A stretch of 64,000 nucleotides of DNA from an uncultured Gammaproteobacteria bacterium. GTDB lineage: Bacteria > Patescibacteriota > Patescibacteriia > Magasanikbacterales > GWA2-37-8. The position numbers were made by a program, and so were the translations under genes. The stretch is taken from contig CAZQUL010000001.1 of NCBI GenBank assembly GCA_964596525.1, forward strand, positions 806,509-870,508, written 5' to 3'. Positions 10,466-28,305 of this stretch are shown one piece after another. The notes below the pieces were generated by a model. The model made no database searches. It was not told the origin of the DNA and worked only from the letters and a program-made list of their open reading frames with translations. The number at the start of each line of letters is the position of its first letter. Position 1 is the stretch's first letter.

Positions 10466-10474
10466 CGAAAGCAT

Positions 10475-10547: not shown

Positions 10548-10600
10548 CAGAAAACGCTGCAGAGAATGCGGTGTTTTTGTTTATGTGGAAAAAATGAGCA

Positions 10601-14099: not shown

Positions 14100-15731
14100 A
14101 TGAAAACTAAATTTATTTTCGTGGTCGGTGGTGTGCTTTCGGGCGTGGGTAAAGGCGTGGCTTCGGCGTCTATCGGGCGCATTCTCAAGAACCGCGGACT
14201 CGAAGTTTCGGCGATCAAGATTGATCCCTACATCAACGTCGATGCCGGCACCATGAACCCGACCGAGCATGGAGAAGTATTTGTCACCGAAGATGCCGAT
14301 GAGGCTGATCAGGACTTGGGCAATTATGAGCGCTTTTTGGATACGAATATCACCTCGGTTAACTACATGACGACTGGCCGCGTGTATCTCTCGGTCATCG
14401 AAGCCGAGCGTAAGATGGCGTATAAGGGAAAGTGTGTCGAAGTGGTACCGCACATTCCTATGGAAGTAGTGGATCGCATCCACAAAGCTGCCAAGTTTAG
14501 CAAAGCCGATGTGATGGTGATTGAAATCGGCGGCACGGTAGGGGAATACCAAAACATCCTTTTCCTCGAAGCGGCGCGCATGATGAAGCTCAAAAACCCC
14601 GACGACGTGCTCTTTGTGCTCGTGAGCTACATGCCCATCCCCGGCCATTTAGGCGAGATGAAAACTAAGCCCACACAAGTTGCAGCCCGCACGCTTAATG
14701 CGAGCGGTATCCAGCCCGACATTATTTTGGCCCGCGGTAAAACCGAACTCGACAAACCGCGCCGCGAAAAACTCGCGCTTTTCTGCGGTTTGCGCTCCGA
14801 AGACGAGGTCATTTCCGCGCCAGATGTGGAAAGCATTTACCTTGTGCCCGAAGTGCTTGAACGCCAGAATTTGAGCAAACTCATTGCTAAAAAACTCAAG
14901 CTTCGTCTCAAGGGCGACAAAAGCGCCGAGTGGAACCAGTTTGTTGGCAAGATGCAGCGGGCGACTAAGCCGCTCAAGATCGCGGTGGTGGGCAAGTATT
15001 TCGGTACTGGTAATTTCACGCTTGCGGATTCGTATATCTCGGTTATCGAAGCTATTAAGCATGCTGCGTGGAGCCAGGGGGCAAAACCGGAATTGGCGTG
15101 GATTGATGCTGAGGATTTCGAAAGCGGCAAGCGCAGTGTTGCCGATCTTAAAGATTTCGCGGCCATTGTAGTGCCGGGAGGATTCGGATCGCGCGGTATT
15201 GAAGGAATCATCAAGGCCATCCGTTTCGCGCGCGAAGAAAAGATTCCGTATCTCGGCTTGTGTTATGGTATGCAGCTTGCTTGTATCGAATTCGTGCGCG
15301 ACGTGCTCGGAAAGAAAACCGCGCATACCGTGGAGGTAGACGCCGACACGGCCGATCCGGTAGTGCATATCAATCCGTTCCAAAAAGATAACGTGCGCCA
15401 CAAGCGTTATGGCGGTACGATGCGCCTGGGTGCGTACCGCTGTACGATTGAAAAGGGGAGTAAGGCGGCCAAGGCATATGGGGAACTTGAAATTTCCGAA
15501 CGCCATCGCCATCGCTACGAATTCAACAACGACTATCGCAGCGCCGTAGAAGAAAAGGGATTGCGCTGCGTGGGCATTAATCCAGAAAGCAATCTCGTGG
15601 AAATCGTCGAGCTTGCGGATCATCCGTATTTCGTCGGTGTGCAGTTTCACCCTGAGTTTAAATCCCGTCCGCTTCATCCGCACCCGTTGTTTGTCGGCCT
15701 TGTTAAAGCCGGAATGAAAGGTAAGGAATAG
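14100..15731 (+). CDS. pyrG: CTP synthase
   Basis: 543 aa. N-terminal synthetase domain and C-terminal glutaminase domain (GLCYGMQLA). Confidence 0.95.
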   Translation: MKTKFIFVVGGVLSGVGKGVASASIGRILKNRGLEVSAIKIDPYINVDAGTMNPTEHGEVFVTEDADEADQDLGNYERFLDTNITSVNYMTTGRVYLSVIEAERKMAYKGKCVEVVPHIPMEVVDRIHKAAKFSKADVMVIEIGGTVGEYQNILFLEAARMMKLKNPDDVLFVLVSYMPIPGHLGEMKTKPTQVAARTLNASGIQPDIILARGKTELDKPRREKLALFCGLRSEDEVISAPDVESIYLVPEVLERQNLSKLIAKKLKLRLKGDKSAEWNQFVGKMQRATKPLKIAVVGKYFGTGNFTLADSYISVIEAIKHAAWSQGAKPELAWIDAEDFESGKRSVADLKDFAAIVVPGGFGSRGIEGIIKAIRFAREEKIPYLGLCYGMQLACIEFVRDVLGKKTAHTVEVDADTADPVVHINPFQKDNVRHKRYGGTMRLGAYRCTIEKGSKAAKAYGELEISERHRHRYEFNNDYRSAVEEKGLRCVGINPESNLVEIVELADHPYFVGVQFHPEFKSRPLHPHPLFVGLVKAGMKGKE

Positions 15732-15786
15732 GAATTGGGAGTTGGTGATTTCTGATGAGACCTTAGTAAGTAAACCTTGCTTTTAG

Positions 15787-15884
15787 CTGTCATTGCGAGC
15801 GCAGCGAAGCAATCCCCTTGATAACAGAGTGAGCTCTGAATTACCTGGGGATTGCTTCGTCGGTATGCTCCTCGCAGTGACATG
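15787..15884. other. long imperfect palindrome / structured element (about 100 nt)
   Basis: Left arm TGTCATTGCGAGC..CGAAGCAATCCCC, 29-nt apical loop, right arm GGGGATTGCTTCG..CCTCGCAGTGACA. A perfect 13-bp inner stem plus an 11-12-bp outer stem separated by an internal loop. Confidence 0.45.
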
Positions 15885-15974
15885 TTTAGTCTTAACCTAA
15901 AAAGCGGAATACAGTATCTAAGTGTAGTATCGACACTTTTTTGATTAATCCGCACTTCGAGATAAAAGGGTGGC

Positions 15975-16003
15975 TTGACACAAAATGAAAAGTCTGGTAT
16001 AAA
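15975..16003 (+). promoter_or_regulatory. sigma70-like promoter TTGACA-N17-TATAAA upstream of the GC-rich island
   Basis: GGCTTGACAcaaaatgaaaagtctggTATAAA, about 200 nt upstream of the 16209 ATG. Confidence 0.45.
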
Positions 16004-16208
16004 AATAAGTCTTTCAGTGTCTGAGCGTTCGTTACAAGGAATGAAGAGAGGTTCATGAACATGGGTCCCACGCTGTTTTTTTGAAGTTTGAGCTTCAAAT
16101 AAGCGGTGTGGGAAGAGGATGGTAGCTTCAATAACAGTTGATGCGCCGCTTTTAACCCATTGTTCACACGACCCCAGTACTGACCCGACCGAGAACAAGG
16201 AGTGTACC

Positions 16209-17111
16209 ATGACCAAGCCCTCGAAGACCCCCGTGAAGCCCGGTAAGACCTCGACCAAGTCCCCGGCTGGCAAGGCCCCCGTGGCCAAGCCCGCCGCCAA
16301 GCCGAGCAAGAAGCCTGCGAAGCCGGTCACCGATGACGATGGCGAAGAGACCGTCTCCAAGGGTACCCTGACCACCGTGCTCAGCGGCATCGCGAACCTG
16401 CTCAAGAAGAAGCCGCAGGACATGGAGCCGGTCGAGCTGCTCGAGGCCTTCTGCGACAAGGCGACCCGCACCCGTGGCCTCGTCGACTGCGCCCGCGCCA
16501 TCTTCGGCGACTCCCCCTGCATCGTCATCAACCGCAACGGCCTGCCCAACAAGAGCAAGACGCTCGCGCGCTACAACGAGGAGAGCAAGCGGCGCGTGTA
16601 CGGCGGGCTCGAGGTCGTCTCGATCGAAGTCGCCCTCGGCAAGATCACCACCCGTAGTCCCTACGACTACCGGATGGAGCTCGACAACGAGGGCATCGAC
16701 GAGGACGGCATCGCCATGCCGGAGAGTTCCGAGGTGCGCGTGTTCATCCGGTTCATGGTCAACCAGCGGATGATGGGCCTCTCCGACGGACAGGTCGACC
16801 CCCAGCGCCGTGACGCCGTGAACCAGGCGGTCGAGAACTACCCCGAGGTGCCCCGCTCCTACGAGCAGGCCAAGATCCTGTTCGAGGGTGCCCGCGATCG
16901 CAACACGCCCGAGTACCGCAAGGCGGTCGAGGATCTCACGGCCGTCACCACGCAGTTCAGCGGCAGCTCGCAGTCCGGCCACGGCCACAACACCGGCTAC
17001 GGCTTCTCGAACACGGGCTACGGCCAGAACGGTGGCTACGCCGGCGACCGCCCGCTCGGCCAGTACAGCGACGGCCCGCGCAGCCCGCGCCGCGACTTCG
17101 GTCGCGACTAG
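16209..17111 (+). CDS. high-GC hypothetical protein with Lys/Ala/Pro-rich N-terminal tail and Gly/Tyr-rich C-terminus
   Basis: ATG preceded by AAGGAG. N-terminus KPSKTPVKPGKTSTKSPAGKAPVAKPAAKPSKKPAKP, C-terminus GHGHNTGYGFSNTGYGQNGGYAGD. GC at third codon positions is near saturation. The ORF-track start at 16119 lies in AT-rich leader DNA and was rejected. Confidence 0.7.
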   Translation: MTKPSKTPVKPGKTSTKSPAGKAPVAKPAAKPSKKPAKPVTDDDGEETVSKGTLTTVLSGIANLLKKKPQDMEPVELLEAFCDKATRTRGLVDCARAIFGDSPCIVINRNGLPNKSKTLARYNEESKRRVYGGLEVVSIEVALGKITTRSPYDYRMELDNEGIDEDGIAMPESSEVRVFIRFMVNQRMMGLSDGQVDPQRRDAVNQAVENYPEVPRSYEQAKILFEGARDRNTPEYRKAVEDLTAVTTQFSGSSQSGHGHNTGYGFSNTGYGQNGGYAGDRPLGQYSDGPRSPRRDFGRD

Positions 17112-17403
17112 AGGCTTCCGGCCTCGCGCGTCGGCGCCGTAACCTTGAGTAGGCGCTAGAGCCGTCCTGTCCAAGGTTTCTCCCTCGTACCTTCCCTCCC
17201 TTCATTCCTCCTGCAGAGATCGTCGCTCCGGTTCCCGGTTGCGGCGGCTCTCTGCCTTTCCCCCAAGAGCTTATGAAGCTCATGAGCACTTGGGTAGAAA
17301 GTTCAATCGTTTTTCTACTACATTGTTCGTTGCCAATCAGTGCTTTTCGCGAAGCTTTTTTTGTTTACGCCGCTTCCACCAACCTGAACGAAAGGAGACG
17401 TCG

Positions 17404-18408
17404 ATGTCCTTCCAGCCCCCGAACCAGCCGCGTGCCTTCGTCTGCCCCGCGCCCCGGAGCGTCGACAACCGCATCTTCGCCCCCGTCATCAAAGCCAATG
17501 GCCTCCTCATGGCCGTGGCCTACCAGCGTGACGGCGAAGCACCCACGCTCGTCAACCTGTTCCGTGAGCCTGGGCGCGACGACGGCCGCATCCTCGTGCC
17601 GCTCCCGCCCGAGGGGGTGAACGTCAGCCTGCTCATCTTCAACCCCACCTCGAGTGCCATCGGCATCCTCGGTGCGGTCGAAGGCGTGTCGATCGTCAAC
17701 CCGAAGCAGGGCGTGTTCGAGCCCACGACCGCCTCCTGCCTGGTCATCAACCCGGGCATGGAAGGCGAAATCGCGGGCTACGTGAACGTCGCGGCGAACG
17801 GCGTGGCAGCGCTCGCGCGATGGAGGCTCCAGCCGGTCGGCTATGGCACCACGGTCGGCGAAGCCACGAAGAAGACCACGGATCTGCGCGGTCAGTGCGA
17901 CCTGTATGTCCGTACCGCCTACCGGGACTTCATGCGCCAGCCCATGGACGACGGCTATATGCGGGATATCGCCTCATCATCCGGCAACCTCGGGTACGAT
18001 CCGGGGCTCGTCGCGGCGCGTCCCTCGCGTCGTGCGGAGGACCTGGATGAGCCGAACTGGGACCATGACAAGCTGCGCAGCCCCAGCAAGGGTACGCGCA
18101 ACGCTCCGGATCGGGGTGGTACCGTACAGGTCGGCATCGGCACCGACGTCACGCAGGAGATTGAGGATCTCCAGCCGGTCTCGTTCTGCCTCGGCGAGAC
18201 AAGCCCGCTCTGCCAGCTCTGGATCGTGGCGCGCTCCGAAGTGCTGCGAAGTTGCATCGAAGGACATCTGGGCCACCGGGCCTGGAACTGGGAGTGTACT
18301 TCCGAGCTGGCCTGGCAGCACCTGAACTCGCTCACCCCGCCGCCTGCCCCGGTCGTCCCCGGCGTGCCCACTGCCCTGAAGGGCTGGGGGTCTGCGCGCC
18401 AGCCCTAG
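17404..18408 (+). CDS. high-GC hypothetical protein (334 aa)
   Basis: ATG preceded by AAAGGAGACG. The composition switches to GC-rich exactly at the start codon. No recognised motif. Confidence 0.65.
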   Translation: MSFQPPNQPRAFVCPAPRSVDNRIFAPVIKANGLLMAVAYQRDGEAPTLVNLFREPGRDDGRILVPLPPEGVNVSLLIFNPTSSAIGILGAVEGVSIVNPKQGVFEPTTASCLVINPGMEGEIAGYVNVAANGVAALARWRLQPVGYGTTVGEATKKTTDLRGQCDLYVRTAYRDFMRQPMDDGYMRDIASSSGNLGYDPGLVAARPSRRAEDLDEPNWDHDKLRSPSKGTRNAPDRGGTVQVGIGTDVTQEIEDLQPVSFCLGETSPLCQLWIVARSEVLRSCIEGHLGHRAWNWECTSELAWQHLNSLTPPPAPVVPGVPTALKGWGSARQP

Positions 18409-18432
18409 CGCGAATCTGAGGCGCGCGCTTTG

Positions 18433-18468
18433 AGCGCCGTTATCCTGTAAAGGAAGCGGCGCTTTTTT
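18433..18468 (+). terminator. candidate rho-independent terminator
   Basis: Stem AGCGCCG/CGGCGCT with a 17-nt loop followed by TTTTTT. Confidence 0.4.
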
Positions 18469-18637
18469 GATAGTAAAGATGATGCAAAAACATTGACTTT
18501 TTTATATATGTACGCTATTCTACGCCGTTAAACTTTCCACCTAGGAATATACTTCGTATTTCTTGGCGGTACGTTTACCGACCCGTTTTTAACGGGATCT
18601 TTCTCTGACAACACAACGCATACGAAGGAGGATTACG

Positions 18638-19921
18638 ATGGCGACCCAGACAGTTCTTGATCCGACCGCTTATCTCGGTTTTGCTAACGGTCTGCCGCTC
18701 TTTCGCGAGCACCGCCAGGCGCTCATCGCCGCGATTGGAGGTCTGGCACACCAGTTTTTGCTTTCGCCCGATGAAGAGCGATCGACGGTAAGAGAGTTGG
18801 TACCGGAAGGTGCCTGGTATCAGCATGTGCCCCGCGATCCGCGTCATGTCGACGATCTCTTGATCAACAAAGTCGGCAACAGGGTGGCGCGGGCGATGAT
18901 TGGCGAGCTACTTGCTCGCTTCAACGCGCTCACTACCGTGTGTCCGCTCGGGCATCTGGGTGTTGGTATCGACAATGGCTCCTGGACAGTGCGCGCCACC
19001 GGAGAGCGTTGCCTCGTGCCCACCTGCCGAGAGACCATCTTGTGGGAGCCTCCGCCGGTTTCGCACTACGACTGGGTCGACGACTGTCTGGTTTCCCTGG
19101 TGGTCCGCGATCGGGTGATTGGCGGGTGCAACGTGCCGATCCATATCGAAAATATCGAGCGGCTCGTCAACAGCATGGGCGGATTGCGTCCTGAGGTTGA
19201 ACAGGTGCTCTCAATTGCGACGCTCCAGAACCGGGGGCTTACCCTTAAGAAGCTTCTCGGTCAGCTGTGGCGTACGCACGCGGTGCGCTATGGCCATCAG
19301 CCGCTCAAGGTTCTCTGGTCGTTCACCCGGCATAATCCCGAATCAGTGGCATATGTGGTGGACGAGCTCAAGAGCGCGGCGTTTGCGGCTGTAACACGCC
19401 AGGCGTCGAGTGGTCCGCCGCCCGCTCCTACATCAGTAGCTCCGCGCAAGAAGCGCGAGAAGCTCTCGGTGGTGGCTATTGCCGCGGCTGACGAAGGCAT
19501 CGATCTGTGGATTCTCCAAGACGTGGCCAAAAGCTTAAAGACCCTCAAGGACTACTCAAGAATTACCGTGTGGACTACGGCGAACTGCACCTTTCCTCAC
19601 CTTATGGCAGAGTGCCTCCCGCCGCAGCTCCAGAACGCCGATGTTGTCTTGCTCTTTTTGAGCGATCGGTTCTTTAAGAGTCCCTGCGGTAAAGAAGCGG
19701 AGCGAGTTCTCCACGGCTTCTGCGACGGACTTTTCCCGTTCCGTATCTACTTGGTGAAGATAAACACCTACTCTTCGGAGTTGGCGTATAACTTGCCAGC
19801 GTTGGTGGATAGCAAGGGCTCGCGGCCGAGTGATGTCGATACGATTGTCCGCACTGCCGCTCTCAAGCTCGCCACCATTATTCCGGCCCACCTCGAGATC
19901 TTTGATCGCGAAAACGCCTAG
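18638..19921 (+). CDS. hypothetical protein with C-terminal TIR-like domain
   Basis: RBS GAAGGAGG. The C-terminal 150 aa read KLSVVAIAAADEG...DVVLLFLSDRFFKSPCGKEAERVL...FRIYLVKINTYSSELAYNLP. This matches the TIR beta-A/alpha-C pattern (S-x-x-[YF]-x-x-S-x-W/C-C-x-x-E). The N-terminal 270 aa are unknown and Cys-rich. GC is about 58-60%. Confidence 0.6.
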   Translation: MATQTVLDPTAYLGFANGLPLFREHRQALIAAIGGLAHQFLLSPDEERSTVRELVPEGAWYQHVPRDPRHVDDLLINKVGNRVARAMIGELLARFNALTTVCPLGHLGVGIDNGSWTVRATGERCLVPTCRETILWEPPPVSHYDWVDDCLVSLVVRDRVIGGCNVPIHIENIERLVNSMGGLRPEVEQVLSIATLQNRGLTLKKLLGQLWRTHAVRYGHQPLKVLWSFTRHNPESVAYVVDELKSAAFAAVTRQASSGPPPAPTSVAPRKKREKLSVVAIAAADEGIDLWILQDVAKSLKTLKDYSRITVWTTANCTFPHLMAECLPPQLQNADVVLLFLSDRFFKSPCGKEAERVLHGFCDGLFPFRIYLVKINTYSSELAYNLPALVDSKGSRPSDVDTIVRTAALKLATIIPAHLEIFDRENA

Positions 19922-20041
19922 CTCTATACCCCCACAAGCAGCTTCCCAAAGCTGCTTTTGCATGTGTGCAAAGTTATACACAGAGTAAACTCTCGGACAA
20001 AGTGTTGTGATGTGGTATACTCTCTACATCACAAGGAGCAA

Positions 20042-20062
20042 GGAGGGGCCCCTCTTTTTTGT
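20042..20062 (+). terminator. candidate terminator
   Basis: GAGGGGCCCCTC palindrome followed by TTTTTTG. It is preceded by a second hairpin, TTGTGATGT..ACATCACAA. Confidence 0.4.
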
Positions 20063-20293
20063 TTGCTTCATACTAAGTGAGGTCGTTGCGAATACGAGTT
20101 ACTTTAGGGTGACTCTCTTTATCCTCGCCTTATTTTTGGATGGCATCCGCATGCGCGGGTCGATTCTGAGCTTAAGGGGAAGATAAGCTCCTGTCAGCGA
20201 TGACGGGAACCTCTTTTCGCAATGACGTCCTTTAGTAGGAACTCACAACGGGTTTCTGCGATTTTACAATTTTTACGACATAAGGAGGGGGAG

Positions 20294-20347
20294 ATGTGCT
20301 TGTTGTTTCTTTATGTCATCATCAAGGTGGGAGACCTTCCTTTTTAG
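20294..20347 (+). CDS. 17-codon leader-like mini-ORF (MCLLFLYVIIKVGDLPF)
   Basis: The window's strongest RBS (TAAGGAGGGGGAG) sits 3-4 nt upstream of its ATG. It overlaps the annotated start of the next ORF in another frame. Confidence 0.25.
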   Translation: MCLLFLYVIIKVGDLPF

Positions 20348-21128
20348 TTTTAGCTCATTGGTAAAGGCGGTGCGGCGAAAAAGCCAGACGTCATCGTTTT
20401 CGCGTCGGGCTTTTTTTCTTGCGCTGCTTTTTTTTGGTGAACTTTTATTGGTTGTCATAGCGTTGCCGCTTATCGTGTTCCGGTCAAAAGCAGCTTTGCC
20501 GCGTGAGGTGGAGCGTTTTTACCGGGCACATCGACAAGCTATGCTTCTGCTTATCGTTCCGCTTCTTAGTATCGGAGTCGTTAAAATTGGTCTTGTGGCG
20601 TATGCTTGGACCTCGCCGGACGACCGTACGGTAAACATTACCGTGCAGTCTGATGAAGTAATTAAACCCTCGATACTAGCTCGTTTTCCGTCTACGGCCA
20701 CGGGTACGCTGCCGCCGCCAGTGGTTGCTGGTATGGCAATGGTGGCGGGTAATACATCGTGGTTTGGGACAGCTGCGCCGGGTGCAGGCGTGGTGGTAGT
20801 TCTTGAACCGGTCGGTGCGCCAGGTGCTGCACGTTGGCTTTTTGCCACTACGTCAAAGGACGGTTCGTGGCAGATTGTGCCTGAAGAACGGGTAGCACGG
20901 CTCGACTCCGGTTCGTATCTCGTTACCGCAACGGCTTTTAATCCGCTCACCCTCAACAAAAGCGCGTCATCGGGAGCCCGGCTTTTTGTGGTTGAGCCGC
21001 GTTTACGAGAAATGCTCCTCCGCCATGCCGATACTGCGGCGAATTGGGCGGTAGCTATCCTGGGCGCGGTCACGTATCTTTTTGTCATCGTTACTTACTC
21101 CGCATCGTATGGAAGAAAAACGCGTTAA
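20313..21128 (+). CDS. membrane protein (hypothetical). The start is uncertain.
   Basis: N-terminal TM helix AFFLALLFFGELLLVVIALPLIVF, C-terminal TM helix WAVAILGAVTYLFVIVTY, and a central Ala/Gly/Pro-rich domain. Confidence 0.5.
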   Translation: MSSSRWETFLFSFSSLVKAVRRKSQTSSFSRRAFFLALLFFGELLLVVIALPLIVFRSKAALPREVERFYRAHRQAMLLLIVPLLSIGVVKIGLVAYAWTSPDDRTVNITVQSDEVIKPSILARFPSTATGTLPPPVVAGMAMVAGNTSWFGTAAPGAGVVVVLEPVGAPGAARWLFATTSKDGSWQIVPEERVARLDSGSYLVTATAFNPLTLNKSASSGARLFVVEPRLREMLLRHADTAANWAVAILGAVTYLFVIVTYSASYGRKTR

Positions 21129-24100
21129 GAAGAACGTTTCTGTCCGAAAAACGGCTGGATCGGTAAAAAAGCTGCAGCTGACTAAAAAAACCATTGTCCG
21201 TCGGGCGCAAAAATCATTGCCTGTCTCCGTTCGCCCAACGTCGTCAAGACCAGATTTTAGCTTAGAAAAACTACTTTCTTTTATTCCTCGCATCGAAGCG
21301 CGGCGTTTGCCTTTGTTCGTTCTGCGTCTTGGCAATTTTTTGGCGCAACGCGCCCGTCGATCAGCTGTTTTGGCGCTTGGTCTTATTGCTCTTTCCGTTG
21401 TGCCGATGGCCTGGTCGTGGGCCGTTGCAGATCAGAATGAGAGCGCTCCGTTAGAGTATATTAATTGGACGTTTGCTCCTGAAAAAACGGTAGCTTACCG
21501 TTACGATCCAAGCCGAATTCAGATCGTTGATGGCGTGGCTATTTTGAAAGCAATCCCGCGTGAAGAAATGCCGCGTCCCGAAGAACCTGTTGCGAATGGT
21601 GAAGCTCCTCTTCTCGTACCGACGAGTATGACGGATGAGCCTGATGAGCAGCCTGGTGCAGGTGAAAATACTCCTTCTTCTACCAATGAAACAACTACAC
21701 CGTCGACGCCAGCACCTCCTTTTTCAGAAGAGTCCGATGTAACTACTACTGCGAAGCGTACACCCTGGTGGAGGAGTCTGGTTGGGCGAGTTATTGCTGC
21801 CGAAGATGAGAGTATAGTGTCGCCTTGTTACGCTGAAATCGAAGCGCTTGAACCGCAAACTCTGCCCGCGCGAACAGAGCTTGCGGCGTTTGAAGCGATT
21901 ACGGTAACGGGAGGCGGACGCGTGGATTTTCAACTTTCTCGCGATGGTGGGGCAACATGGCGAGCGTTTTCTGATGATGAATGGGTCGCGTCGTCGACAC
22001 TTTTTTCTTCAGCTGAAACGATTAATCGGCATCTCGATAAGTTCGGGTCAGCGGAAACTATTTTGTTCCGTGCCCGTTTGATGAGTGCGTGTGAGGAACC
22101 GGTTGGTCTGGTGCGCGTGAGTGTCGGCTATGCCAAAGAACGAATTCCGGAAAAATCTGTTTCTGCACCTGCGCTCGAGGTTGCTATTTCCACATCTTCG
22201 TTTGAAGTGGTGAAAGCGAATCATTCGGCGGAGCGTAGCGCTGAAGAAGGACAGTATCTTACCGTCGATCGTTTTCCGCTTGCGTATCTTGAAGGCGCGA
22301 GTACGACCTGGGCGGTTTTTCCGTGGCATGAAGTTGTAGCGGGGCACACATCTACAACCAGTTGGTTGCATTTGGGGGGAGCGTCACGTGATGGTTTGGC
22401 AACCGTGCAGCTTATCGTGCCGCGGCGCAGGGCGGATGCCGGTGTACGGGTATGCCCGGGTGCCCAGAATGCGAATGAAGTGTACCGTGGCTGCCCAAAC
22501 GAACATATTCTTACGCTTGAGGAACCCACATCTTCGCCGTATTATTTGACCGCTTTGGAAGATCTTGATCGTTGGCATATTGAAGCGCCGGCAGCCGTAT
22601 TTTCCACGGGAGCGGAGCCGATCATAGACGCGCTTGTCGCTGAATGGGCGATGGACGATAGCGACGTGTGCCGGATCGTAGACACGTTTGGTCGTGCGAC
22701 CGGTACCATAAGCGGCAGTTGTTCTTTAGCACCCGGCCGTATTGAAGGAAAATTTGGCACCGCGCGTCTGGCAAGTTCAACCAGCTCGCCTTTCGTGATT
22801 CCGTTTGTTGCCCCGGCGGCTACTACGTCGTGGACGTTTAGTACCTGGGTTTACCCTGCCACGTCAACCGCGCTACGCGTGCTCGCTGAGCAGGCGGATC
22901 AGTTCCGTTGGTTTGCCGACCCGGACAATCGTTTGCTGTTTGACTATCGAGATAGTACGACCGGCCAGTGGCAACGTCTAACTCCGAGCAATGCCTTGCT
23001 GAACAGTTCGTGGCAACAGGTTGCCGTATCTGCGGGAGAAGAGGGGGTTGCGCTCTATCAAAACGGCACGCAGGTTGCTTTTGCGTCGTCTACTGCGCAG
23101 TTTTTGTCTGCCTCTTTTTTCTTAGGAGCTGCGGCAACGAGTTCGGAAGCAGGGTGGGTAGGTGGAATTGATACGTTCCGCTGGTATAATTATCCGTTTA
23201 CTCTTGAGCGTGCGGCCGAAGAATATGTCCGCGGCAGCAACCATGCGCCGGAGCTACGCCTTGATGCGCCCGTGTTTAACGCAGCTTCTGGCACAGTTTC
23301 GTTTCCCTATACGTTATTCGATTACGATGCCGATGTCGTACGCTTGCCGCGCGTGGAGTATTCAGCCACCGGAGCGTTTATCGGCGAAGAGCGGCCAGCG
23401 ACACCAGCGGTTGCCGATTCTGCGCATAGCGGTACGGTGAATCTGCCGGCGCGGCGTGATGGTGTGCGTGGGACGTTTGTCTGGGATCTGCGTACTGATG
23501 TTGGCGATGCCGTGCACGAGGACATGGCAATGCGCATTGTCCCGGCCGATAGTTTCGGCGAAGGTAGTGCAACATCCACCCATACCGGACGTCTGGCTGT
23601 GTGGAGCGTGGATGGTGAGCCGGTGGTGGGGGGTAGTCATCGGTGTACGCCGCAAACACCCCGTTGTTCTACGCTTGGTCAGGCTTTGTCCCAAGCGCGC
23701 GACTATGACACGGTCCGCGTTGCGACCGGTACGTATCCAGAACAGATTACGATTGAACGGCCGCTTTCTTTTATTGGCCAGGGGAATCCGCGTATCGATA
23801 CGGTGAAACTTGTCAAAAACGGTCGTGTGGTGCGATCACGCGGCGTAGTGGCAGAGCGTATACAGCTTGATAAAGCGAGTGGTGACGTACGTATCGCCGA
23901 CGCGCTTCTAATCGCTGCCCCGGGTGCAGAGATTGTTTTGTCCGCCGGAACCTATAAAGAAGACACGCAGCTTGCTATCCGTCAGTCAGTTTCCATCAAG
24001 GGTACCAGCCAAAGTTCTACTGTCATCGTCAGTCCCCGTACGATCGGTACCCAGTTTGCTGATTTATCACTTATCGATATTGCTGGCACTAACGATATGG

Positions 24101-25968
24101 CGACACGGACCATCAATGTGAGTGTCGAAGATTTGACGGTAGATGTTGAGCGCATGCCTCGTCTTAAATTTGGCATCATGGTGCGCGGTGGTGCGTATGC
24201 GCATCTCAAGCGCGTGACCGTTAAAGGAACGCTGCCGGCCTGGGGTGACTGGAACACCGGTAATATTATCGTGGGCTGGAAAGATTTCGGGTATGCCGGT
24301 GAGGCACTTATCGAAGATTCGTACACTACTGATTTCCATTCTTTCGGCGTGGCGGCATATGGCCCGCGTAATAAGGTAACTCTTAAGCGCACCACAATTC
24401 AGGGAACACCCTCGATGAGCGTTTGCAACGGTGCAGTCGGTGTTATCGTTCAGTCAGACGCCGTGGCCGATATTGCGGCGACAACTATCCGCGGCTTGAT
24501 GCGCAATCCTGTAACTTCTACGTGTCCGGCGCCGGTTTACGGATCAGGACTCGAGCTCTATTGGGCCGGTAAAGTTCGTATCGAAGGTTCCCGTTTTGAA
24601 AGTGGTGAATATGGTATCGGTTCGTATAACCAGTGGGGGCCCAACCAGCCACTGTCCATTGTTGGTACCACGTTCCATAATCTTGATGTTGCCATCCAGC
24701 TTGGCGGCAGTATCGGCTTTGATGATTTCCGTTTAAATAGCTTCACGAGCACTACGTTGGCTATTCGCAATACCATGTCGACGCCCGTGGTTGCTTCTGC
24801 CTCGTGGTGGGGTGATGCGAGCGGTCCGTATGATCCTAAACCGTTGCCAGGTATACCGGATTACAATAATCCGTCCGGGAAAGGCGCAGCAGTGACGAGT
24901 TACATCGATTACCGTAATTGGCTTACTTCTGTACCATTTCAGATTTCGGTATCATCAACGGGCGGTGGTAGCGTTACGCCGGGTGGGATTTTTGAAGCGG
25001 CGTATCGCGGCATGATCGACTTTGCCCTTATGCCTGATAGTGATTACGACATTGATGACCTTGTAGTGAATGGTGTTTCAGTCGGACCTACTACGTCGTA
25101 TCGCATTGGTGAAGTGACGTCGAGTTACACGATTTTTGCCGCCTTCAAGCAGCGCCCGCCGCGGCCGATCGGTGGCACGGACCCAACGCCGCAACCGATT
25201 GTGTTCGTCCCTGCGCCTCCTTCGGCTCCGGTATCGGTTGCGTCTGCTACATTGCCGTCGGTGAGCAGTACGCCTGGTGTTTCCTCGTCTTTACCTGACC
25301 TGATCTCGGATGCGCGCTCTGGCGTGCCGGACTATCAATTCCCCGCGTCATACACATATCTCCAAGATAACACGCACCTGCAGACTGGCGTTTTGAATTC
25401 GTCCTCACCCATTCTTGCGATAAGTATTGCAAGTAGCGCAAAACCATCCGTTGTTGGTGCTAACGTTCGGGCGTTCCTTGCGCCGCGTTCGCAACCGGTT
25501 TCTCCTTCCACTACTGCACCGCTTTCAGCCACGCCTTCACTTTTGCCGCAGACAGAAATAACGAGTGTTACCCCAGCTGCGCTTAATGACCGTCTTGTTA
25601 TTACGGGTACAGGTTTGCCGCACGGCGAAGCGCTAGTCTTTATCCATTCCGAAGAAGCGGTTACCTACCGTGTCACGGTCGACAAAACCGGTGCGTGGTC
25701 TTTGGTGCATGACCAAGCTGTTGTTGCGCTTGAACCGGGTGACCATACGGTATATGCGGTTTCGTATGATCCCAAAACCAACATCAGCTTGGCTCCTAGC
25801 CGTGTGCATGGTTTTGTTATTGAGCAAAAATGGTTCAGCTACCTCATGCGCTACGTAGATGTGCCAACGACGCTCATGACGTTTGGCATCTTGCTGCTTA
25901 TTGCGGTCGGTTTATCTACCCGGCTTAGGATAGAATATGGTATAGTACTACCACGTTCTCAATCGTAA
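21082..25968 (+). CDS. giant surface protein (about 1620 aa) with LamG/concanavalin-like and right-handed beta-helix regions
   Basis: N-terminal signal-anchor AVLALGLIALSVVPMAWSWAVA. LamG-like block SWTFSTWVYPA...GVALYQNGTQVAF. Pectate-lyase-like beta-helix repeats (GTYPEQITIERPLSFIGQG, SAGTYKEDTQLAIRQSVSIKGTS). C-terminal TM helix TLMTFGILLLIAVGL. The likely start is the internal ATG at 21109. Confidence 0.8.
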   Translation: MSSLLTPHRMEEKRVKKNVSVRKTAGSVKKLQLTKKTIVRRAQKSLPVSVRPTSSRPDFSLEKLLSFIPRIEARRLPLFVLRLGNFLAQRARRSAVLALGLIALSVVPMAWSWAVADQNESAPLEYINWTFAPEKTVAYRYDPSRIQIVDGVAILKAIPREEMPRPEEPVANGEAPLLVPTSMTDEPDEQPGAGENTPSSTNETTTPSTPAPPFSEESDVTTTAKRTPWWRSLVGRVIAAEDESIVSPCYAEIEALEPQTLPARTELAAFEAITVTGGGRVDFQLSRDGGATWRAFSDDEWVASSTLFSSAETINRHLDKFGSAETILFRARLMSACEEPVGLVRVSVGYAKERIPEKSVSAPALEVAISTSSFEVVKANHSAERSAEEGQYLTVDRFPLAYLEGASTTWAVFPWHEVVAGHTSTTSWLHLGGASRDGLATVQLIVPRRRADAGVRVCPGAQNANEVYRGCPNEHILTLEEPTSSPYYLTALEDLDRWHIEAPAAVFSTGAEPIIDALVAEWAMDDSDVCRIVDTFGRATGTISGSCSLAPGRIEGKFGTARLASSTSSPFVIPFVAPAATTSWTFSTWVYPATSTALRVLAEQADQFRWFADPDNRLLFDYRDSTTGQWQRLTPSNALLNSSWQQVAVSAGEEGVALYQNGTQVAFASSTAQFLSASFFLGAAATSSEAGWVGGIDTFRWYNYPFTLERAAEEYVRGSNHAPELRLDAPVFNAASGTVSFPYTLFDYDADVVRLPRVEYSATGAFIGEERPATPAVADSAHSGTVNLPARRDGVRGTFVWDLRTDVGDAVHEDMAMRIVPADSFGEGSATSTHTGRLAVWSVDGEPVVGGSHRCTPQTPRCSTLGQALSQARDYDTVRVATGTYPEQITIERPLSFIGQGNPRIDTVKLVKNGRVVRSRGVVAERIQLDKASGDVRIADALLIAAPGAEIVLSAGTYKEDTQLAIRQSVSIKGTSQSSTVIVSPRTIGTQFADLSLIDIAGTNDMATRTINVSVEDLTVDVERMPRLKFGIMVRGGAYAHLKRVTVKGTLPAWGDWNTGNIIVGWKDFGYAGEALIEDSYTTDFHSFGVAAYGPRNKVTLKRTTIQGTPSMSVCNGAVGVIVQSDAVADIAATTIRGLMRNPVTSTCPAPVYGSGLELYWAGKVRIEGSRFESGEYGIGSYNQWGPNQPLSIVGTTFHNLDVAIQLGGSIGFDDFRLNSFTSTTLAIRNTMSTPVVASASWWGDASGPYDPKPLPGIPDYNNPSGKGAAVTSYIDYRNWLTSVPFQISVSSTGGGSVTPGGIFEAAYRGMIDFALMPDSDYDIDDLVVNGVSVGPTTSYRIGEVTSSYTIFAAFKQRPPRPIGGTDPTPQPIVFVPAPPSAPVSVASATLPSVSSTPGVSSSLPDLISDARSGVPDYQFPASYTYLQDNTHLQTGVLNSSSPILAISIASSAKPSVVGANVRAFLAPRSQPVSPSTTAPLSATPSLLPQTEITSVTPAALNDRLVITGTGLPHGEALVFIHSEEAVTYRVTVDKTGAWSLVHDQAVVALEPGDHTVYAVSYDPKTNISLAPSRVHGFVIEQKWFSYLMRYVDVPTTLMTFGILLLIAVGLSTRLRIEYGIVLPRSQS

Positions 25969-26006
25969 CCTTCTCGCCCGTCGGGCCTTGTTCTAAACAA
26001 TCACGT

Positions 26007-27038
26007 ATGGCGCCATCTCGTTACGTTTCCGGTGCAGCCTTGCTCTCGCTTCTCCTTACGTTCGGTGTGGGGTGCAATATCGTTTCGGTGCGCACCGCCG
26101 GCTCAACCCCAAGCGCGCCCACAACCGCCGCTCCAGTGAAGCGTTCCCGCGTTACGCTTGTGCCAAGCGCGCCTTCGTACGTCGTTCCCGTGGTCGAAGA
26201 TTACCTTACGTCCAATATCGTAAAACCAAAAAATACCGGCAGCGTTCTTACGGCAGCATTTTATACCTATGCCCAAGAAGAGCGCGAAGACGAACTTTAC
26301 TACTATATTTGGGGCGTGGTTGGTGAGTACGGGCAGCGTTCAGGCCGCGTGGTAACACTCGGCAGTTTCAGCGCGCCGCTCATTATTATTCTGGCCAAAG
26401 ATACTGATGGCGCTTATACGCGCGTTTTGGGGTACCGTCAGGCGCGTTCGCGCACCGAATCGCAGGCCATCCGCGAACTCTTCCCTCTAGATGCCGTTAA
26501 AGAAATACTCGGCCAAGAAGACGTCCATTCCAAACGCGTCGAACTCTTGTTTACCGAGACCCTCAATAAAGCGCGGGCAGCATTCAGCGTAGGCACCCCT
26601 GTTGATCTCGAAGCGGAAAGCGATGAGAAATGCATCAATTATAAATTCGAAGATTTCTCGCTTGGCGACCCCTACACCGGCGGTTATAATCCGTACCAGA
26701 TCGTCGGTTGGACCATCAGCAGCAACCTCAATACCGCCTTGGCGAGTGCTTACAATTCTGGTCCCAATTTAGCCGGGCGCTTCGTTATCGCGCGTGCGGC
26801 CTGCGGAACCAACTGCTACGAATACGGCATTGTCGACAATGCTACCGGCAATTTGGTTGCTGCACCCTTCCGTGCGAACTATGGCGTGGATTTCCGCCCT
26901 GATAGCCGCCTCATCGTCGTCAATCCGTACAAGAACATTCTTACGCCCAAATCCGCCGTGGTTACTTCGTACCTCGAGCTCATCGTTACGGCTACCGATG
27001 CCCGGCTCGAAACCCGCTGCGTGTATACATCCCGTTAA
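26007..27038 (+). CDS. secreted / lipoprotein-like hypothetical protein
   Basis: The signal peptide ends in TFGVGC. No recognised catalytic motif. Confidence 0.6.
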   Translation: MAPSRYVSGAALLSLLLTFGVGCNIVSVRTAGSTPSAPTTAAPVKRSRVTLVPSAPSYVVPVVEDYLTSNIVKPKNTGSVLTAAFYTYAQEEREDELYYYIWGVVGEYGQRSGRVVTLGSFSAPLIIILAKDTDGAYTRVLGYRQARSRTESQAIRELFPLDAVKEILGQEDVHSKRVELLFTETLNKARAAFSVGTPVDLEAESDEKCINYKFEDFSLGDPYTGGYNPYQIVGWTISSNLNTALASAYNSGPNLAGRFVIARAACGTNCYEYGIVDNATGNLVAAPFRANYGVDFRPDSRLIVVNPYKNILTPKSAVVTSYLELIVTATDARLETRCVYTSR

Positions 27039-27055
27039 TCTTCCCTTACTCAATA

Positions 27056-27087
27056 AAAATACTCCGCTAAACGGAGTATTTTTATTG
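27056..27087. terminator. bidirectional terminator between convergent genes
   Basis: AAAAATACTCCG-ctaaa-CGGAGTATTTTTATT. Confidence 0.7.
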
Positions 27088-27097
27088 TGGGAAATTC

Positions 27098-27784: not shown

Positions 27785-27832
27785 ACGGAATCGTGATACA
27801 ACCAAGAATAATAACCTTAGTTTACCTTACGT

Positions 27833-28252: not shown

Positions 28253-28305
28253 AATTGAAGACCGCCCCGAGTCTTCGGAGCGGTGCAGAAGTAGTTGTCT
28301 GTTCT

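What the first reader, a model, noticed from the sequence alone, without database searches (positions are those of the whole stretch)
16209..19921. Three-gene high-GC island wired to native-type promoters
By eye GC jumps from about 50% to about 65-70% at 16209, and third codon positions are almost all G or C. This persists through two ORFs (16209..17111, 17404..18408) and continues at about 58-60% in a third (18638..19921). The intergenic pieces and leaders are AT-richer and carry host-style TTGACA-N17 promoters (15975..16003, possibly 18494..18522), AAGGAG-type RBSs and T-run terminators. This argues for real integration and expression of foreign, Actinobacteria-like coding sequences rather than a binning or assembly chimera. 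None of the three proteins has an obvious housekeeping identity.
Basis: partly seen in the sequence, partly recalled or inferred. Interest (0 to 1): 0.8.

Follow-up and report, generated by a model that had tools for sequence, protein, structure and literature searches.

The report
GC-rich TIR gene trio beside pyrG
Three unusually GC-rich genes next to the CTP synthase gene of a small-genome (Patescibacteria-like) bacterium are real and sit in the same place in its relatives. They use different codon and ribosome-binding signals from the rest of the genome, and are more likely an old, fast-evolving TIR-domain conflict module than a fresh import from Actinobacteria.

Summary
The composition jump is real. 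The three ORFs have GC 0.67/0.67/0.58 and GC3 0.94/0.85/0.68, against about 0.52 and 0.57 for the window. It is not an assembly chimera.

No Actinobacteria-like donor exists in the databases: word-indexed searches find only self, and an exhaustive HMMER search finds nine remote homologues.

The same module, pyrG then a variable M1, M2 and M3, lies directly after pyrG in two related metagenomic genomes (pyrG 83-89% identical). There it is again GC3-rich. Sister lineages have pyrG next to secA or another core block and lack the module.

pyrG synonymous sites are saturated between these genomes, so the high GC3 cannot be a passive scar of one recent transfer. The promoter, a 5' leader hairpin with compensatory changes, and the strong Shine-Dalgarno sites are conserved. 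The proteins are only 23-43% identical.

The AAGGAG sites are not host-style: 46 of 53 genes in the window lack an SD. SD presence goes with high GC3 in all three genomes.

M3 is a new zinc-ribbon domain fused to a TIR-like domain. The isl1 core has a homologue on a 63%-GC phage-like contig.

Best reading: an anciently integrated, rapidly diversifying TIR conflict module written in a foreign expression style.

The parts
14100..15731 (+). pyrG (CTP synthase). Native anchor gene that precedes the module in every genome where the upstream side is known.
   Evidence: Pfam CTP_synth_N and GATase in the precomputed calls. GC3 0.61 and no SD. 89% and 83% identical to the pyrG of L086 and L084, and 62-72% to Magasanikbacteria-like MAGs.
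15788..15882 (.). REP/MITE-like palindromic element in the pyrG-M1 spacer. Specific to the window and not part of the conserved module. It is the site of the Logan contig break.
   Evidence: DNA fold -30.8 kcal/mol, z = -8.0. L001 ends at 15817 and L002/L003 start at 15794. Absent from the aligned spacers of L084 and L087.
15975..16003 (+). Sigma-70-type promoter of M1 (TTGACA-N17-TATAAA).
   Evidence: Sequence and own scan. The -35 and -10 hexamers are conserved at the same alignment position in L084 and L087, as CTTGAC-N17-TATAGT.
16010..16208 (+). Roughly 200-nt structured 5' leader of M1. It holds a conserved hairpin (about 16066-16113) and the SD AAGGAG at 16197-16202.
   Evidence: RNA MFE -70.2 kcal/mol, z = -4.8. 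In the consensus fold of three genomes, 13 of 37 pairs keep pairing through changes on both sides. No Rfam match.
16209..17111 (+). isl1 (the M1 slot), 300 aa. It has a Lys/Pro-rich basic N-tail, a globular core (about aa 65-235) and a Gly/Tyr/Ser/Arg-rich C-tail.
   Evidence: GC3 0.94, AAG 22 of 22, GAG 18 of 20. No Pfam, PHROG or PADLOC family and no PDB sequence match. The core is homologous to P0007 (E 4.9e-9) and P0009. P0007 lies on a phage-like contig of 63% GC. The M1 proteins of L084 and L087 are not detectably homologous in their cores.
17112..17403 (+). M1-M2 spacer with SD AAGGAG at 17392-17397. No clear terminator, so M1 and M2 may be co-transcribed.
   Evidence: Sequence. Partial nucleotide conservation with L084 and L087, mean column identity 63%.
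17404..18408 (+). isl2 (M2), 334 aa. A beta-rich N-terminal part, a disordered middle, a Trp-containing C-terminal part and a Pro-rich tail.
   Evidence: GC3 0.85. Homologous over its full length to the second gene after pyrG in L084 (pairwise E 0.002) and to P0012. Family alignment A8. No Pfam, PADLOC or PDB match. The single-sequence AlphaFold2 model is unusable, pLDDT 33.
18434..18468 (+). Intrinsic terminator after M2 (GCGCCG...CGGCGC followed by TTTTTT).
   Evidence: Read directly from the sequence. The scan's rule (loop of 3-8) does not list it, because the loop is longer.
18493..18521 (+). Candidate promoter of M3 (TTGACT-N17-TATTCT).
   Evidence: Consensus scan, 9 of 12 matches. Weaker evidence than for the M1 promoter.
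18638..19921 (+). isl3 (M3), 427 aa. A new N-terminal domain with a zinc-ribbon-like Cys set (about aa 5-250, nt 18650-19387), a Pro-rich linker, and a TIR-like C-terminal domain (about aa 275-427, nt 19460-19918). SD AAGGAGG at 18625-18631.
19937..19960 (+). Intrinsic terminator after M3 (AGCAGCTT...AAGCTGCT followed by a T-run).
   Evidence: Read directly from the sequence.
15732..28946 (.). Variable region between pyrG and secA. The three-gene module is its conserved 5' part.
   Evidence: In L005 and L096 (pyrG 69% identical) secA follows pyrG directly. In L011, L012 and L095 the window's 45.8-51.4 kb block follows pyrG.

Best explanation
The three ORFs are real protein-coding genes. They form a clade-specific accessory module that was integrated immediately downstream of pyrG before the window genome and its known relatives diverged. 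It has stayed at that position since.

The module has three parts:
- M1 is a variable first gene. Here it is isl1, whose core has a homologue on a phage-like contig.
- M2 is a conserved but very fast-evolving second gene.
- M3 combines a new zinc-ribbon-containing domain with a TIR-like domain.

The module carries its own expression apparatus: a sigma-70-type promoter, a long structured leader, strong Shine-Dalgarno sites, GC3-rich codons and intrinsic terminators. This style differs from the SD-less, moderate-GC3 core genes. It is shared by other accessory genes of the lineage and by a 63%-GC phage-like contig.

Shown: the composition, the synteny, conservation of the regulatory DNA, the divergence of the proteins, the link between SD and GC3, and the TIR-like fold.

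Inferred, function (about 40%): the module is a conflict system of the anti-phage or abortive-infection kind. In this reading the M3 N-domain, perhaps with M1 and M2, senses an invader, and the TIR domain acts as an NAD+-consuming or signal-generating effector.

Inferred, composition: the persistent GC3 excess reflects repeated replacement of ORFs, above all M1, from a GC-rich, SD-using mobile gene pool, followed by slow amelioration. The gradient M1 > M2 > M3 fits this. Selection for GC-ending codons is the main alternative.
For: Real and in place:
- Logan contigs are identical to the window from 15794 onward and run on towards secA.
- Three independent metagenomic sources show pyrG followed by the three genes.

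Coding:
- The GC1/2/3 pattern is 0.61/0.47/0.94.
- M2 and M3 show pN below pS. The close M3 pair has dN 0.24 and dS 0.84.

Clade-specific:
- None of about 160 Patescibacteria pyrG loci (pyrG identity 72% or less) carries a homologue.
- In those loci pyrG is followed by secA or by the Bac_transf block.

Old:
- pyrG pS is 0.73-0.82 and four-fold sites are 31-40% identical between the three genomes.
- The promoter, leader hairpin and SD are nevertheless conserved.

Foreign style:
- M1 uses AAG 88-100% and GAG 79-90% in all three genomes, against 34-36% and 25-36% in native genes.
- 46 of 53 window genes lack an SD, while all three island genes have a strong one.
- SD-bearing genes have higher GC3 in all three genomes: Mann-Whitney p 0.0022, 0.00035 and 0.048.
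- The RSCU of isl1 and isl2 correlates at r 0.81 with the phage-like contig L085 and at 0.61-0.67 with native genes. L085 has an SD on 29 of 35 genes.

Turnover:
- The M1 cores are not detectably homologous between genomes.
- The M2 similarities disagree with pyrG. L084 and L086 are 40-43% identical in M2, and the window is 25-29% identical to each, although the window's pyrG is closest to L086.
- isl3 scores better against P0004, which lies at another locus (29% identity, E 1.9e-22), than against its syntenic counterparts P0008 and P0010 (24-26% identity, E about 7e-15 and 8e-14).

Conflict-system flavour:
- There are weak EAD7 hits in one M3 relative and in P0007.
- M3 occurs as tandem paralogues in L089 and L091.
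- Horizontally transferred genes of Patescibacteria are reported to be enriched in defence functions (PMC12455944).
Against: - No known defence-system model matches any of the three proteins. PADLOC returns nothing at E up to 0.1.
- isl3's own Pfam TIR_2 score (15.2 bits) is below the gathering cutoff of 28.
- The candidate catalytic Glu (E353, in SPCGKE) is not conserved across the family.
- isl3 itself lacks the EAD-like C-terminal extension seen in some relatives.
- No expression data exist.
- ORF-precise replacement inside conserved spacers needs donors that carry the same spacers. No such mobile donor was found in IMG/VR or among GenBank phages.
- The relationship of the three genomes rests on a few genes, not on a species tree.
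Confidence: 0.5

Rival explanations
1. Recent horizontal transfer of a 3.7-kb block from a high-GC donor such as Actinomycetota, perhaps the epibiont's host, later wired to host promoters.
For: GC3 reaches 0.94. Lys, Glu and Leu codon choices are typical of high-GC genomes and opposite to native ones. Strong SD sites stand out in an SD-poor genome. The isl1 core has a homologue on a 63%-GC phage-like contig.
Against: No homologue in any high-GC genome appears among 15 billion proteins. The only hits are nine remote homologues. At least four of them lie on contigs shown or inferred to come from relatives, and one lies on a phage-like contig. The same module at the same locus is GC3-rich in relatives with saturated pyrG synonymous divergence. 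The spacers, promoter and leader are conserved with the module and have native-like GC. There is no tRNA, integrase or flanking direct repeat. Actinomycetota were a rare donor (1 event) in a survey of HGT into Patescibacteria (PMC12455944).
Confidence: 0.07
2. Assembly or binning chimera that joins a high-GC organism's DNA to this genome.
For: The Logan contigs break at 15794-15817, which is the left edge of the island.
Against: The break falls inside a strong palindromic repeat element, and the two contigs overlap by 24 nt. The island is contiguous with native-composition genes as far as secA in an independent assembly of two runs. Contigs from other samples span pyrG into the module. The spacers have native GC.
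Confidence: 0.01
3. The module is inherited vertically, and its GC3-rich, SD-led style is held by selection. One version: the genes are translated under a separate regime, such as ribosomes with an exposed anti-SD, or conditions in which the tRNAs that read AAA, GAA and CAA are limiting. Another version: transcription of a C/G-rich mRNA reports CTP and GTP supply, which would fit the position next to pyrG.
For: GC3 stays at 0.86-0.94 in M1 and 0.68-0.85 in M2 in three genomes, although neutral sites in pyrG are saturated. The excess is confined to the ORFs, mostly to third positions, and the spacers are not GC-enriched. C-ending codons dominate wherever there is a choice. The leader is structured and conserved. 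The link to pyrG holds in all three genomes while the upstream neighbours differ.
Against: No mechanism was tested. The M1 cores are not homologous between genomes, which fits replacement better. M3 of L086 has nearly host-like GC3, 0.58 against 0.47-0.56. Other SD-bearing, GC-rich genes are scattered and are not next to pyrG.
Confidence: 0.2
4. The module encodes factors used against or on the host cell of an episymbiont, such as secreted or surface effectors, rather than an anti-phage system.
For: It evolves fast and is lineage-specific. M1 and M2 have disordered, low-complexity tails. In the window it lies next to a 1628-aa Laminin_G_3 surface-type protein. TIR proteins of pathogens can act on host cells (own knowledge).
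Against: No signal peptide or secretion signal was examined or is evident. The neighbours differ between relatives: p450 in L084 and a Bac_transf block in L089. The lifestyle of this organism is unknown.
Confidence: 0.15
5. The genes are integron-type or other site-specific gene cassettes.
For: The genes are ORFan-like, point the same way and have atypical GC. They are separated by spacers that are conserved between genomes.
Against: The three spacers share no repeated attC-like element. No integrase or tyrosine recombinase gene was seen among the flanking genes scanned with Pfam. Each gene has its own promoter or SD, unlike promoterless cassettes.
Confidence: 0.03

Closest known systems
Prokaryotic TIR-domain defence effectors (Thoeris ThsB, Pycsar PycTIR, CBASS TIR-STING, TIR-SAVED)
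   Different: No partner typical of those systems is present: no ThsA SIR2 or Macro-SLOG protein, no pyrimidine or oligonucleotide cyclase, and no STING, SAVED or cNMP-binding domain. PADLOC finds nothing. The N-domain, M1 and M2 belong to no described family. The catalytic Glu is uncertain.
EAD-linked, diversifying conflict systems (Kaur, Burroughs, Iyer and Aravind 2020, PMC7159879)
   Same: A TIR effector occurs together with small helical C-terminal adaptor-like domains. These give weak EAD7 matches in one M3-family member and in the isl1 homologue P0007. The systems are lineage-specific and diversify quickly. According to the paper, EADs couple effectors encoded by adjacent genes.
   Different: No STAND, vWA-MoxR or GTPase core component is present. 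isl3 itself has no EAD-like tail. The EAD matches are far below threshold.
Phage 'morons': autonomous promoter-gene-terminator units whose base composition differs from their neighbours (own knowledge: Juhala et al. 2000; Hendrix et al. 2000)
   Same: The units are self-contained transcription units, with a promoter, a strong SD and an intrinsic terminator, and their composition is sharply atypical and confined to the ORFs. The isl1 core has a homologue on a phage-like contig.
   Different: They are not inside a prophage. No phage genes lie nearby, and PHROGs gives no hit below E 0.067. The units are conserved at one chromosomal site across diverged genomes.
Classical genomic islands from recent HGT
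   Same: Atypical GC and codon usage, accessory content, and absence from sister lineages.
   Different: There is no tRNA target, integrase or direct repeat. The module is shared and syntenic in relatives with saturated synonymous divergence. Its regulatory spacers are conserved.

Membership tests
TIR domain (Pfam PF13676 TIR_2 / PF01582 TIR) | Sequence match to the family profile at or above the curated cutoff | tested here: inconclusive
   isl3 scores 15.2 bits against TIR_2 (E 0.031), below the cutoff of 28. Of eight family members, 4 match TIR_2 (best E 4.4e-6) and 1 matches TIR (E 1.4e-4).
TIR domain (Pfam PF13676 TIR_2 / PF01582 TIR) | Flavodoxin-like three-layer fold that is closest to TIR structures | tested here: met
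TIR NADase effectors | Conserved catalytic glutamate after the S-x-W-C-x-x-E-like motif | tested here: inconclusive
   isl3 has SPCGKE with a candidate E353. The aligned position is not conserved among the family members.
Thoeris | A ThsB TIR protein together with a ThsA (SIR2 or TM plus Macro/SLOG) effector | tested here: not met
   No PADLOC model matches any of the three proteins or the neighbours at E up to 0.1. No SIR2 or SLOG domain appears in Pfam.
Pycsar / CBASS | A nucleotide cyclase (PycC or CD-NTase) encoded next to the TIR effector, which carries a nucleotide-sensing domain | tested here: not met
   isl1 and isl2 have no cyclase or CD-NTase match in Pfam or PADLOC. The N-domain of isl3 has no structural match to a sensor domain.
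EAD-coupled conflict systems (PMC7159879) | Matching effector-associated domains on adjacent proteins, plus an NTPase core (vWA-MoxR, STAND or GTPase) | tested here: not met
   Only weak EAD7 hits (E about 0.09) occur, in one M3 relative and in P0007. isl3 has none. No NTPase gene is in the module.
Recently acquired genomic island | Insertion at a tRNA or other target with an integrase and direct repeats, and absence from close relatives | tested here: not met
   The nearest tRNAs are at 10267-10548 and 55246-55317. No flanking repeats were found. The module is present at the same locus in relatives.
Integron gene cassettes | An intI integrase and attC recombination sites between promoterless cassettes | tested here: not met
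   The spacers share no repeated attC-like element. The genes have their own promoters and SD sites. No integrase was seen in the scanned flanks. The whole genome was not available.
Phage moron | A promoter-gene-terminator unit of atypical composition inserted between genes of a prophage | tested here: inconclusive
   The unit structure and atypical composition are met. The prophage context is not met: no PHROG matches below E 0.067 and chromosomal core genes on both sides.

The most novel reading that the evidence does not exclude
A small clade of Patescibacteria-like bacteria keeps a second expression style for a subset of genes: strong Shine-Dalgarno sites, GC3-rich (mostly C-ending) codons and long structured leaders. 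The core genes of the same genomes lack SD sites.

In this reading the pyrG-linked TIR trio is the clearest example, and its composition is held by selection rather than inherited from a donor. The genes would then be transcribed or translated only in a particular cell state. Candidate states are free anti-SD on the ribosome, loss of the tRNAs that read AAA, GAA and CAA during phage attack, or high CTP and GTP supply, which would fit the position next to CTP synthase.

A further, wilder version is that the signals match a GC-rich host cell rather than the carrier, as with Agrobacterium T-DNA genes.
Probability: 0.15. Interest if true: 0.85.

Novelty: new variant of a known kind. Interest (0 to 1): 0.62.

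Why it matters
This case shows how a textbook-looking 'foreign GC island' can mislead. The compositional anomaly is tens of GC3 points high, is confined to the ORFs, and persists at one locus in genomes whose neutral sites have fully turned over. Meanwhile the regulatory DNA is conserved and the proteins change almost beyond recognition. That pattern is not what simple amelioration theory predicts.

The finding also defines three undescribed protein families in candidate-phyla-radiation-type bacteria, whose immune and host-interaction genes are largely unknown. One of them is a new zinc-ribbon domain fused to TIR.

It reveals a genome with two classes of genes: SD-less core genes and SD-led, GC3-rich accessory genes. 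That split can be tested on the complete 1.34-Mb genome. It bears on how translation initiation and gene flow interact in ultra-small bacteria.

Tried and rejected
- Word-indexed homologue searches of the three proteins returned only self.
- Pfam, PHROGs, PADLOC and PDB sequence searches of the single proteins gave nothing usable, apart from a weak TIR_2 hit. Profile searches of the M1 and M2 alignments against the PDB also gave nothing.
- Single-sequence AlphaFold2 of isl2 gave pLDDT 33, so it was not used.
- Foldseek of the isl3 model against the PDB and BFVD gave no hit at E 1e-3 or better. The afdb50 library was not available.
- IMG/VR scans with isl2, the isl1 family alignment, M2 of L086 and P0006 found no relatives.
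- tblastn of P0007 and of a neighbouring L085 protein against GenBank phages found no match.
- The M3 alignment was too divergent for a pattern scan of the metagenomes. The single metagenome scan and the single genome scan were therefore spent on pyrG. They gave sister-lineage synteny but no closer relatives.
- Rfam found nothing for the leader or spacers.
- The tRNA-linked island idea was rejected. The integron idea was rejected.
- 'Extreme native codon bias' was considered, because a likelihood score under native codon frequencies is not an outlier. It was rejected because Lys, Glu and Leu codon choices are opposite to those of native genes, including highly expressed ones.
- A long-range duplex calculation between the M1 leader and the region after M1 was uninformative on whole sequences. 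An ungapped scan is significant only in the window.
- A literature search for the run accession found nothing.

Full report

Yes. In 100-nt windows GC is 0.37-0.52 just upstream of 16200. It jumps to 0.63-0.76 across 16201-17200, falls to 0.44 at 17301-17400, and returns to 0.60-0.76 up to 18400. It then falls to 0.40-0.48 and runs at 0.50-0.65 through 19900.

| ORF | GC | GC1 / GC2 / GC3 |
|---|---|---|
| 16209-17111 | 0.671 | 0.61 / 0.47 / 0.94 |
| 17404-18408 | 0.673 | 0.67 / 0.50 / 0.85 |
| 18638-19921 | 0.582 | 0.63 / 0.44 / 0.68 |

The window as a whole has GC 0.519, and the median GC3 of its ORFs is 0.57. The strong three-base periodicity identifies the + strand frames as coding. The long antisense ORF at 16164-17174 has GC1 0.91, which is the usual by-product of a GC3-rich gene.

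The third gene's GC3 overlaps the upper native range (atpD 0.70). Its Lys, Glu and Gln codons still differ from native ones: AAG 81%, GAG 65% and CAG 92%.

One other gene in the window shares the anomaly. It is 35932-37365 on the minus strand, a DUF1646 protein with GC3 0.86.

**2. Is it an artefact?**

No.
- Logan assemblies of two runs (SRR11567528 and SRR11567520) give contigs identical to the window over 15794-27111 and 15794-26268. The first contig is 14,005 nt long, so it reaches secA.
- The contig that carries pyrG ends at 15817. The 24-nt overlap lies in a 95-nt palindromic REP-like element at 15788-15882, which folds with z = -8. That element explains the break.
- Contigs from unrelated samples run from pyrG straight into a homologous module.

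**3. Whose genome is it?**

The record is a 1,343,778-bp contig. Its pyrG is 69-72% identical to MAGs labelled Candidatus Magasanikbacteria or to unlabelled Patescibacteria. Era, SecA and other proteins give the same picture. I therefore treat it as a Patescibacteria (CPR)-type organism near Magasanikbacteria. This is an inference from a few genes. Even its pyrG and secA are singletons at 90% clustering, so the lineage is poorly sampled.

**4. Are the genes foreign, and from where?**

- Each protein finds only itself among 5.8 billion clusters.
- An exhaustive HMMER scan of 1.84 billion representatives used the three proteins concatenated, with the low-complexity tails of isl1 trimmed. It finds nine remote homologues.
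  - Six match the N-terminal two-thirds of isl3: P0004, P0005, P0006, P0008, P0010 and P0011.
  - Two match the isl1 core: P0007 and P0009.
  - One matches isl2: P0012.
- All nine are singleton clusters from metagenomes or MAGs. None comes from an identifiable Actinobacterium. The 'Actinobacteria-like donor' therefore has no support beyond composition.

**5. The decisive context.**

P0010 lies on a 568,873-bp JGI contig (L084). There pyrG is followed by a 235-aa gene, a 325-aa gene and P0010. P0008 lies on Logan contigs (L086-L088). There pyrG is followed by a 430-aa gene, a 332-aa gene and P0008.

- The second genes are homologous to isl2. The pairwise E against L084 is 0.002 over the full length. 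L084 and L086 are 40% identical to each other.
- The pyrG of L086 and L084 is 89% and 83% identical to the window's. That is far closer than anything in the two public collections scanned.
- L092 carries an M2-M3 pair. L089 and L091 carry two M3 paralogues in tandem.
- L089 continues into homologues of window genes 45805-47169 and 47305-48324 (46% and 80% identity). That block follows pyrG directly in the more distant relatives L011, L012 and L095.
- In the relatives L005 and L096, secA follows pyrG directly.
- None of about 160 Patescibacteria pyrG loci with 10-kb flanks contains a homologue of any module protein.

The module is therefore an insertion specific to a narrow clade, and within that clade it is fixed next to pyrG. 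In the window the whole stretch 15732-28946 is extra relative to the pyrG-secA arrangement.

**6. The composition anomaly is shared.**

| Genome | pyrG GC3 | M1 GC3 | M2 GC3 | M3 GC3 |
|---|---|---|---|---|
| window | 0.61 | 0.94 | 0.85 | 0.68 |
| L086/L087 | 0.47 | 0.89 | 0.74 | 0.58 |
| L084 | 0.52 | 0.86 | 0.68 | 0.72 |

In M1 of all three genomes AAG is 88-100% and GAG is 79-90%. In native genes they are 34-36% and 25-36%.

Between the three genomes pyrG has pS 0.73-0.82, and only 31-40% of four-fold sites are identical. Synonymous sites are therefore saturated. A single ancestral import left to decay neutrally should by now be close to host composition. M3 and some M2 genes could fit partial amelioration. 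M1 at 0.86-0.94 cannot.

Two readings remain.

(a) ORFs are replaced again and again from a GC-rich pool.
- The M1 cores are not detectably homologous between genomes. isl1 matches P0007 and P0009, the L084 M1 is a double zinc ribbon, and the L087 M1 is helical.
- The M2 and M3 similarities disagree with pyrG.
- The gradient M1 > M2 > M3 looks like an age series.

(b) Selection keeps the codons GC-ending.
- The excess is confined to ORFs and third positions.
- The spacers have native-like GC of 0.44-0.55.

I favour (a), with (b) as a live alternative.

**7. Regulatory DNA is better conserved than the proteins.**

The pyrG-M1 spacers of the three genomes share several features:
- the -35 and -10 hexamers (CTTGACA-N17-TATAAA or TATAGT);
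- a block just after the start of transcription;
- a long hairpin whose arms differ between genomes but stay paired (TCCCACGCTG...CGGTGTGGGA in the window, CCTCCTCACGCT...AGAGTGAGGAGG in the others);
- the GAGAACAAGGAG ribosome-binding region.

In the consensus fold, 13 of 37 pairs keep pairing through changes on both sides. That count rests on only three sequences. The window leader (16010-16208) folds with z = -4.8. No Rfam family matches. The proteins encoded between these spacers are 23-43% identical or unrelated.

**8. The 'host-style' RBS claim fails, and this is informative.**

- Only 7 of 53 window genes have GGAG, GAGG or AGGA within 20 nt of the start. Well-anchored core genes (pyrG, secA, atpD) have none.
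- The seven include all three island genes (AAGGAG, AAGGAG, AAGGAGG) and the GC-rich DUF1646 gene (GGGAGGG).
- The same split holds in the relatives. SD-bearing genes have higher GC3 than SD-less genes: Mann-Whitney p = 0.0022 (window), 0.00035 (L084) and 0.048 (L086). In L084 this class includes a p450 gene next to the module.
- The phage-like contig that carries the isl1 homologue (L085) has 63% GC and an SD on 29 of 35 genes. Its codon usage correlates with isl1 and isl2 at r = 0.81, against 0.61-0.67 for native genes.

The module is thus written in a foreign style, with GC3-rich codons and SD-led initiation. It shares this style with other accessory genes of the clade. This supports an ultimately horizontal origin, probably through mobile elements, without pointing to Actinobacteria.

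**9. What the proteins are.**

*isl3 (M3).*
- The family alignment shows an N-terminal domain of about 250 aa with invariant C102, C125 and C130 and an MGGLHPDI-like motif. A proline-rich linker follows, then a domain matching Pfam TIR_2 or TIR in 4-5 of 8 members (best E 4.4e-6; isl3 itself E 0.031).
- Some members, but not isl3, have an extra helical tail with a faint EAD7 match.
- An AlphaFold2 model built on a 7-sequence alignment has pLDDT 72, with about 88 in the N-domain and 50-66 in the C-domain.
- A candidate catalytic Glu (E353, in SPCGKE) exists but is not conserved in the family.

*isl1.* It has a Lys/Pro-rich N-tail, also seen in the M1 of L084, and a Gly/Tyr/Arg-rich C-tail. Its core is shared with P0007 and P0009. 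P0007 lies among small same-strand ORFs, next to a Gp3-like recombination directionality factor and a PDDEXK nuclease.

*isl2.* It has no recognisable domain.

*Selection.* Purifying selection is visible. In M2 and M3, pN (0.43-0.55) is below pS (0.65-0.73). The close pair P0004 and L091 has dN 0.24 and dS 0.84.

**10. How it most likely works.**

Shown: this is a self-contained, clade-specific, syntenic three-gene unit. M1 and M2 are probably co-transcribed from a conserved promoter and leader. M3 has its own promoter and terminator.

Inferred: by analogy with prokaryotic TIR systems and the diversifying conflict systems described in PMC7159879, the zinc-ribbon domain of M3, possibly with M1 and M2, recognises an invader-derived cue. 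The TIR domain then consumes NAD+ or produces a nucleotide signal. The fast divergence, the paralogy, the swapped M1 cores and the phage homologue all fit an arms race. The reported enrichment of defence genes among transferred genes of Patescibacteria fits too (PMC12455944).

I put about 40% on a defence-type function. I put about 85% on the structural and evolutionary description. The reason for the pyrG linkage is unknown. It may be only the ancestral insertion point.

**11. Comparison with known systems, and novelty.**

The module works most like a TIR-based defence locus. It fails the membership tests for Thoeris, Pycsar/CBASS and EAD-NTPase systems, because no partner enzymes are present and PADLOC finds nothing. 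It resembles phage morons in unit structure but is not in a prophage. It lacks the hallmarks of a classical island or an integron.

I class it as a new variant of a known kind. Two features are unusual:
- the ORF-confined GC3 excess that persists at a fixed locus across saturated divergence;
- the split of the genome into SD-less core genes and SD-led, GC-rich accessory genes.

**12. Verdict.**

Interest 0.62.

Noticed in passing
window 35932-37365 (-): A second strongly GC-rich gene. It encodes a DUF1646 membrane protein with GC 0.65, GC3 0.86, AAG 16 of 16 and GAG 13 of 15. It has a strong SD (GGGAGGG) and sits just downstream of the atp operon. It shares the island's expression style.
   Followed up: partly
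whole window; for example upstream of 14100, 28947 and 39379 (-): Core genes lack Shine-Dalgarno motifs: 46 of 53 have none. Many starts are preceded by ...TCT or ...CGT. SD presence correlates with high GC3 in the window and also in L084 and L086.
   Followed up: partly
window 15788-15882: A 95-nt palindromic REP/MITE-like element (GTCATTGCGAGCGCAGCGAAGCAATCCCC...GGGGATTGCTTCG...CTCGCAGTGAC). The DNA fold has z = -8. It is the break point of the Logan contigs and is absent from the same spacer in relatives.
   Followed up: partly
L084 9680-9800, L086 9670-9800, L092 430-560: A non-coding block of roughly 130 nt after M2, ending in a terminator. It is almost identical in three genomes whose synonymous sites are saturated, so it may be an RNA element. 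It is absent from the window and has no Rfam match. There is too little variation to test covariation.
   Followed up: partly
window 16037-16051 and 17195-17209: A 15-nt segment of the M1 leader (AGGAATGAAGAGAGG) is complementary, at 14 of 15 positions, to a segment just after the isl1 stop codon. None of 200 shuffles reached this score. Analogous but shorter complements occur at the equivalent places in L084 (CTAAGGAAA / TTTCCTTAG) and L087, and these are not significant on their own. This may be a pairing that brackets the M1 ORF.
   Followed up: partly
window 15732-28946: Relative to L005 and L096, where pyrG and secA are adjacent, the window carries about 13 kb of extra DNA. It holds the module, a 271-aa protein, a 1628-aa Laminin_G_3 protein, a 343-aa protein, a methyltransferase and two small ORFs. 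All but the module have native composition.
   Followed up: partly
window 19994-20065: A promoter-like site (CGGACA-N16-TATACT with an extended TG) is followed within about 40 nt by two SD-like motifs and a hairpin plus T-run terminator. This looks like a very short transcription unit between M3 and the next gene.
   Followed up: no
L084 11430-12767: A cytochrome P450 gene directly after the module in the relative also has raised GC3 (0.68 against about 0.45) and an SD-like site. P450 is unusual for a Patescibacteria-type genome.
   Followed up: no
L085 (JGI 3300033066, contig Ga0364482_11677): A phage-like contig of 23.7 kb and 63% GC carries the isl1 homologue P0007. It lies among small same-strand ORFs, next to a Gp3-like recombination directionality factor, a PDDEXK nuclease and an N6/N4 methyltransferase. 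No relative was found among GenBank phages or in IMG/VR.
   Followed up: partly
L089 146-2656 and L091 188-3098: M3-family genes occur as tandem paralogue pairs in two further contigs. One member of each pair carries the EAD-like tail or the TIR domain in different combinations.
   Followed up: partly
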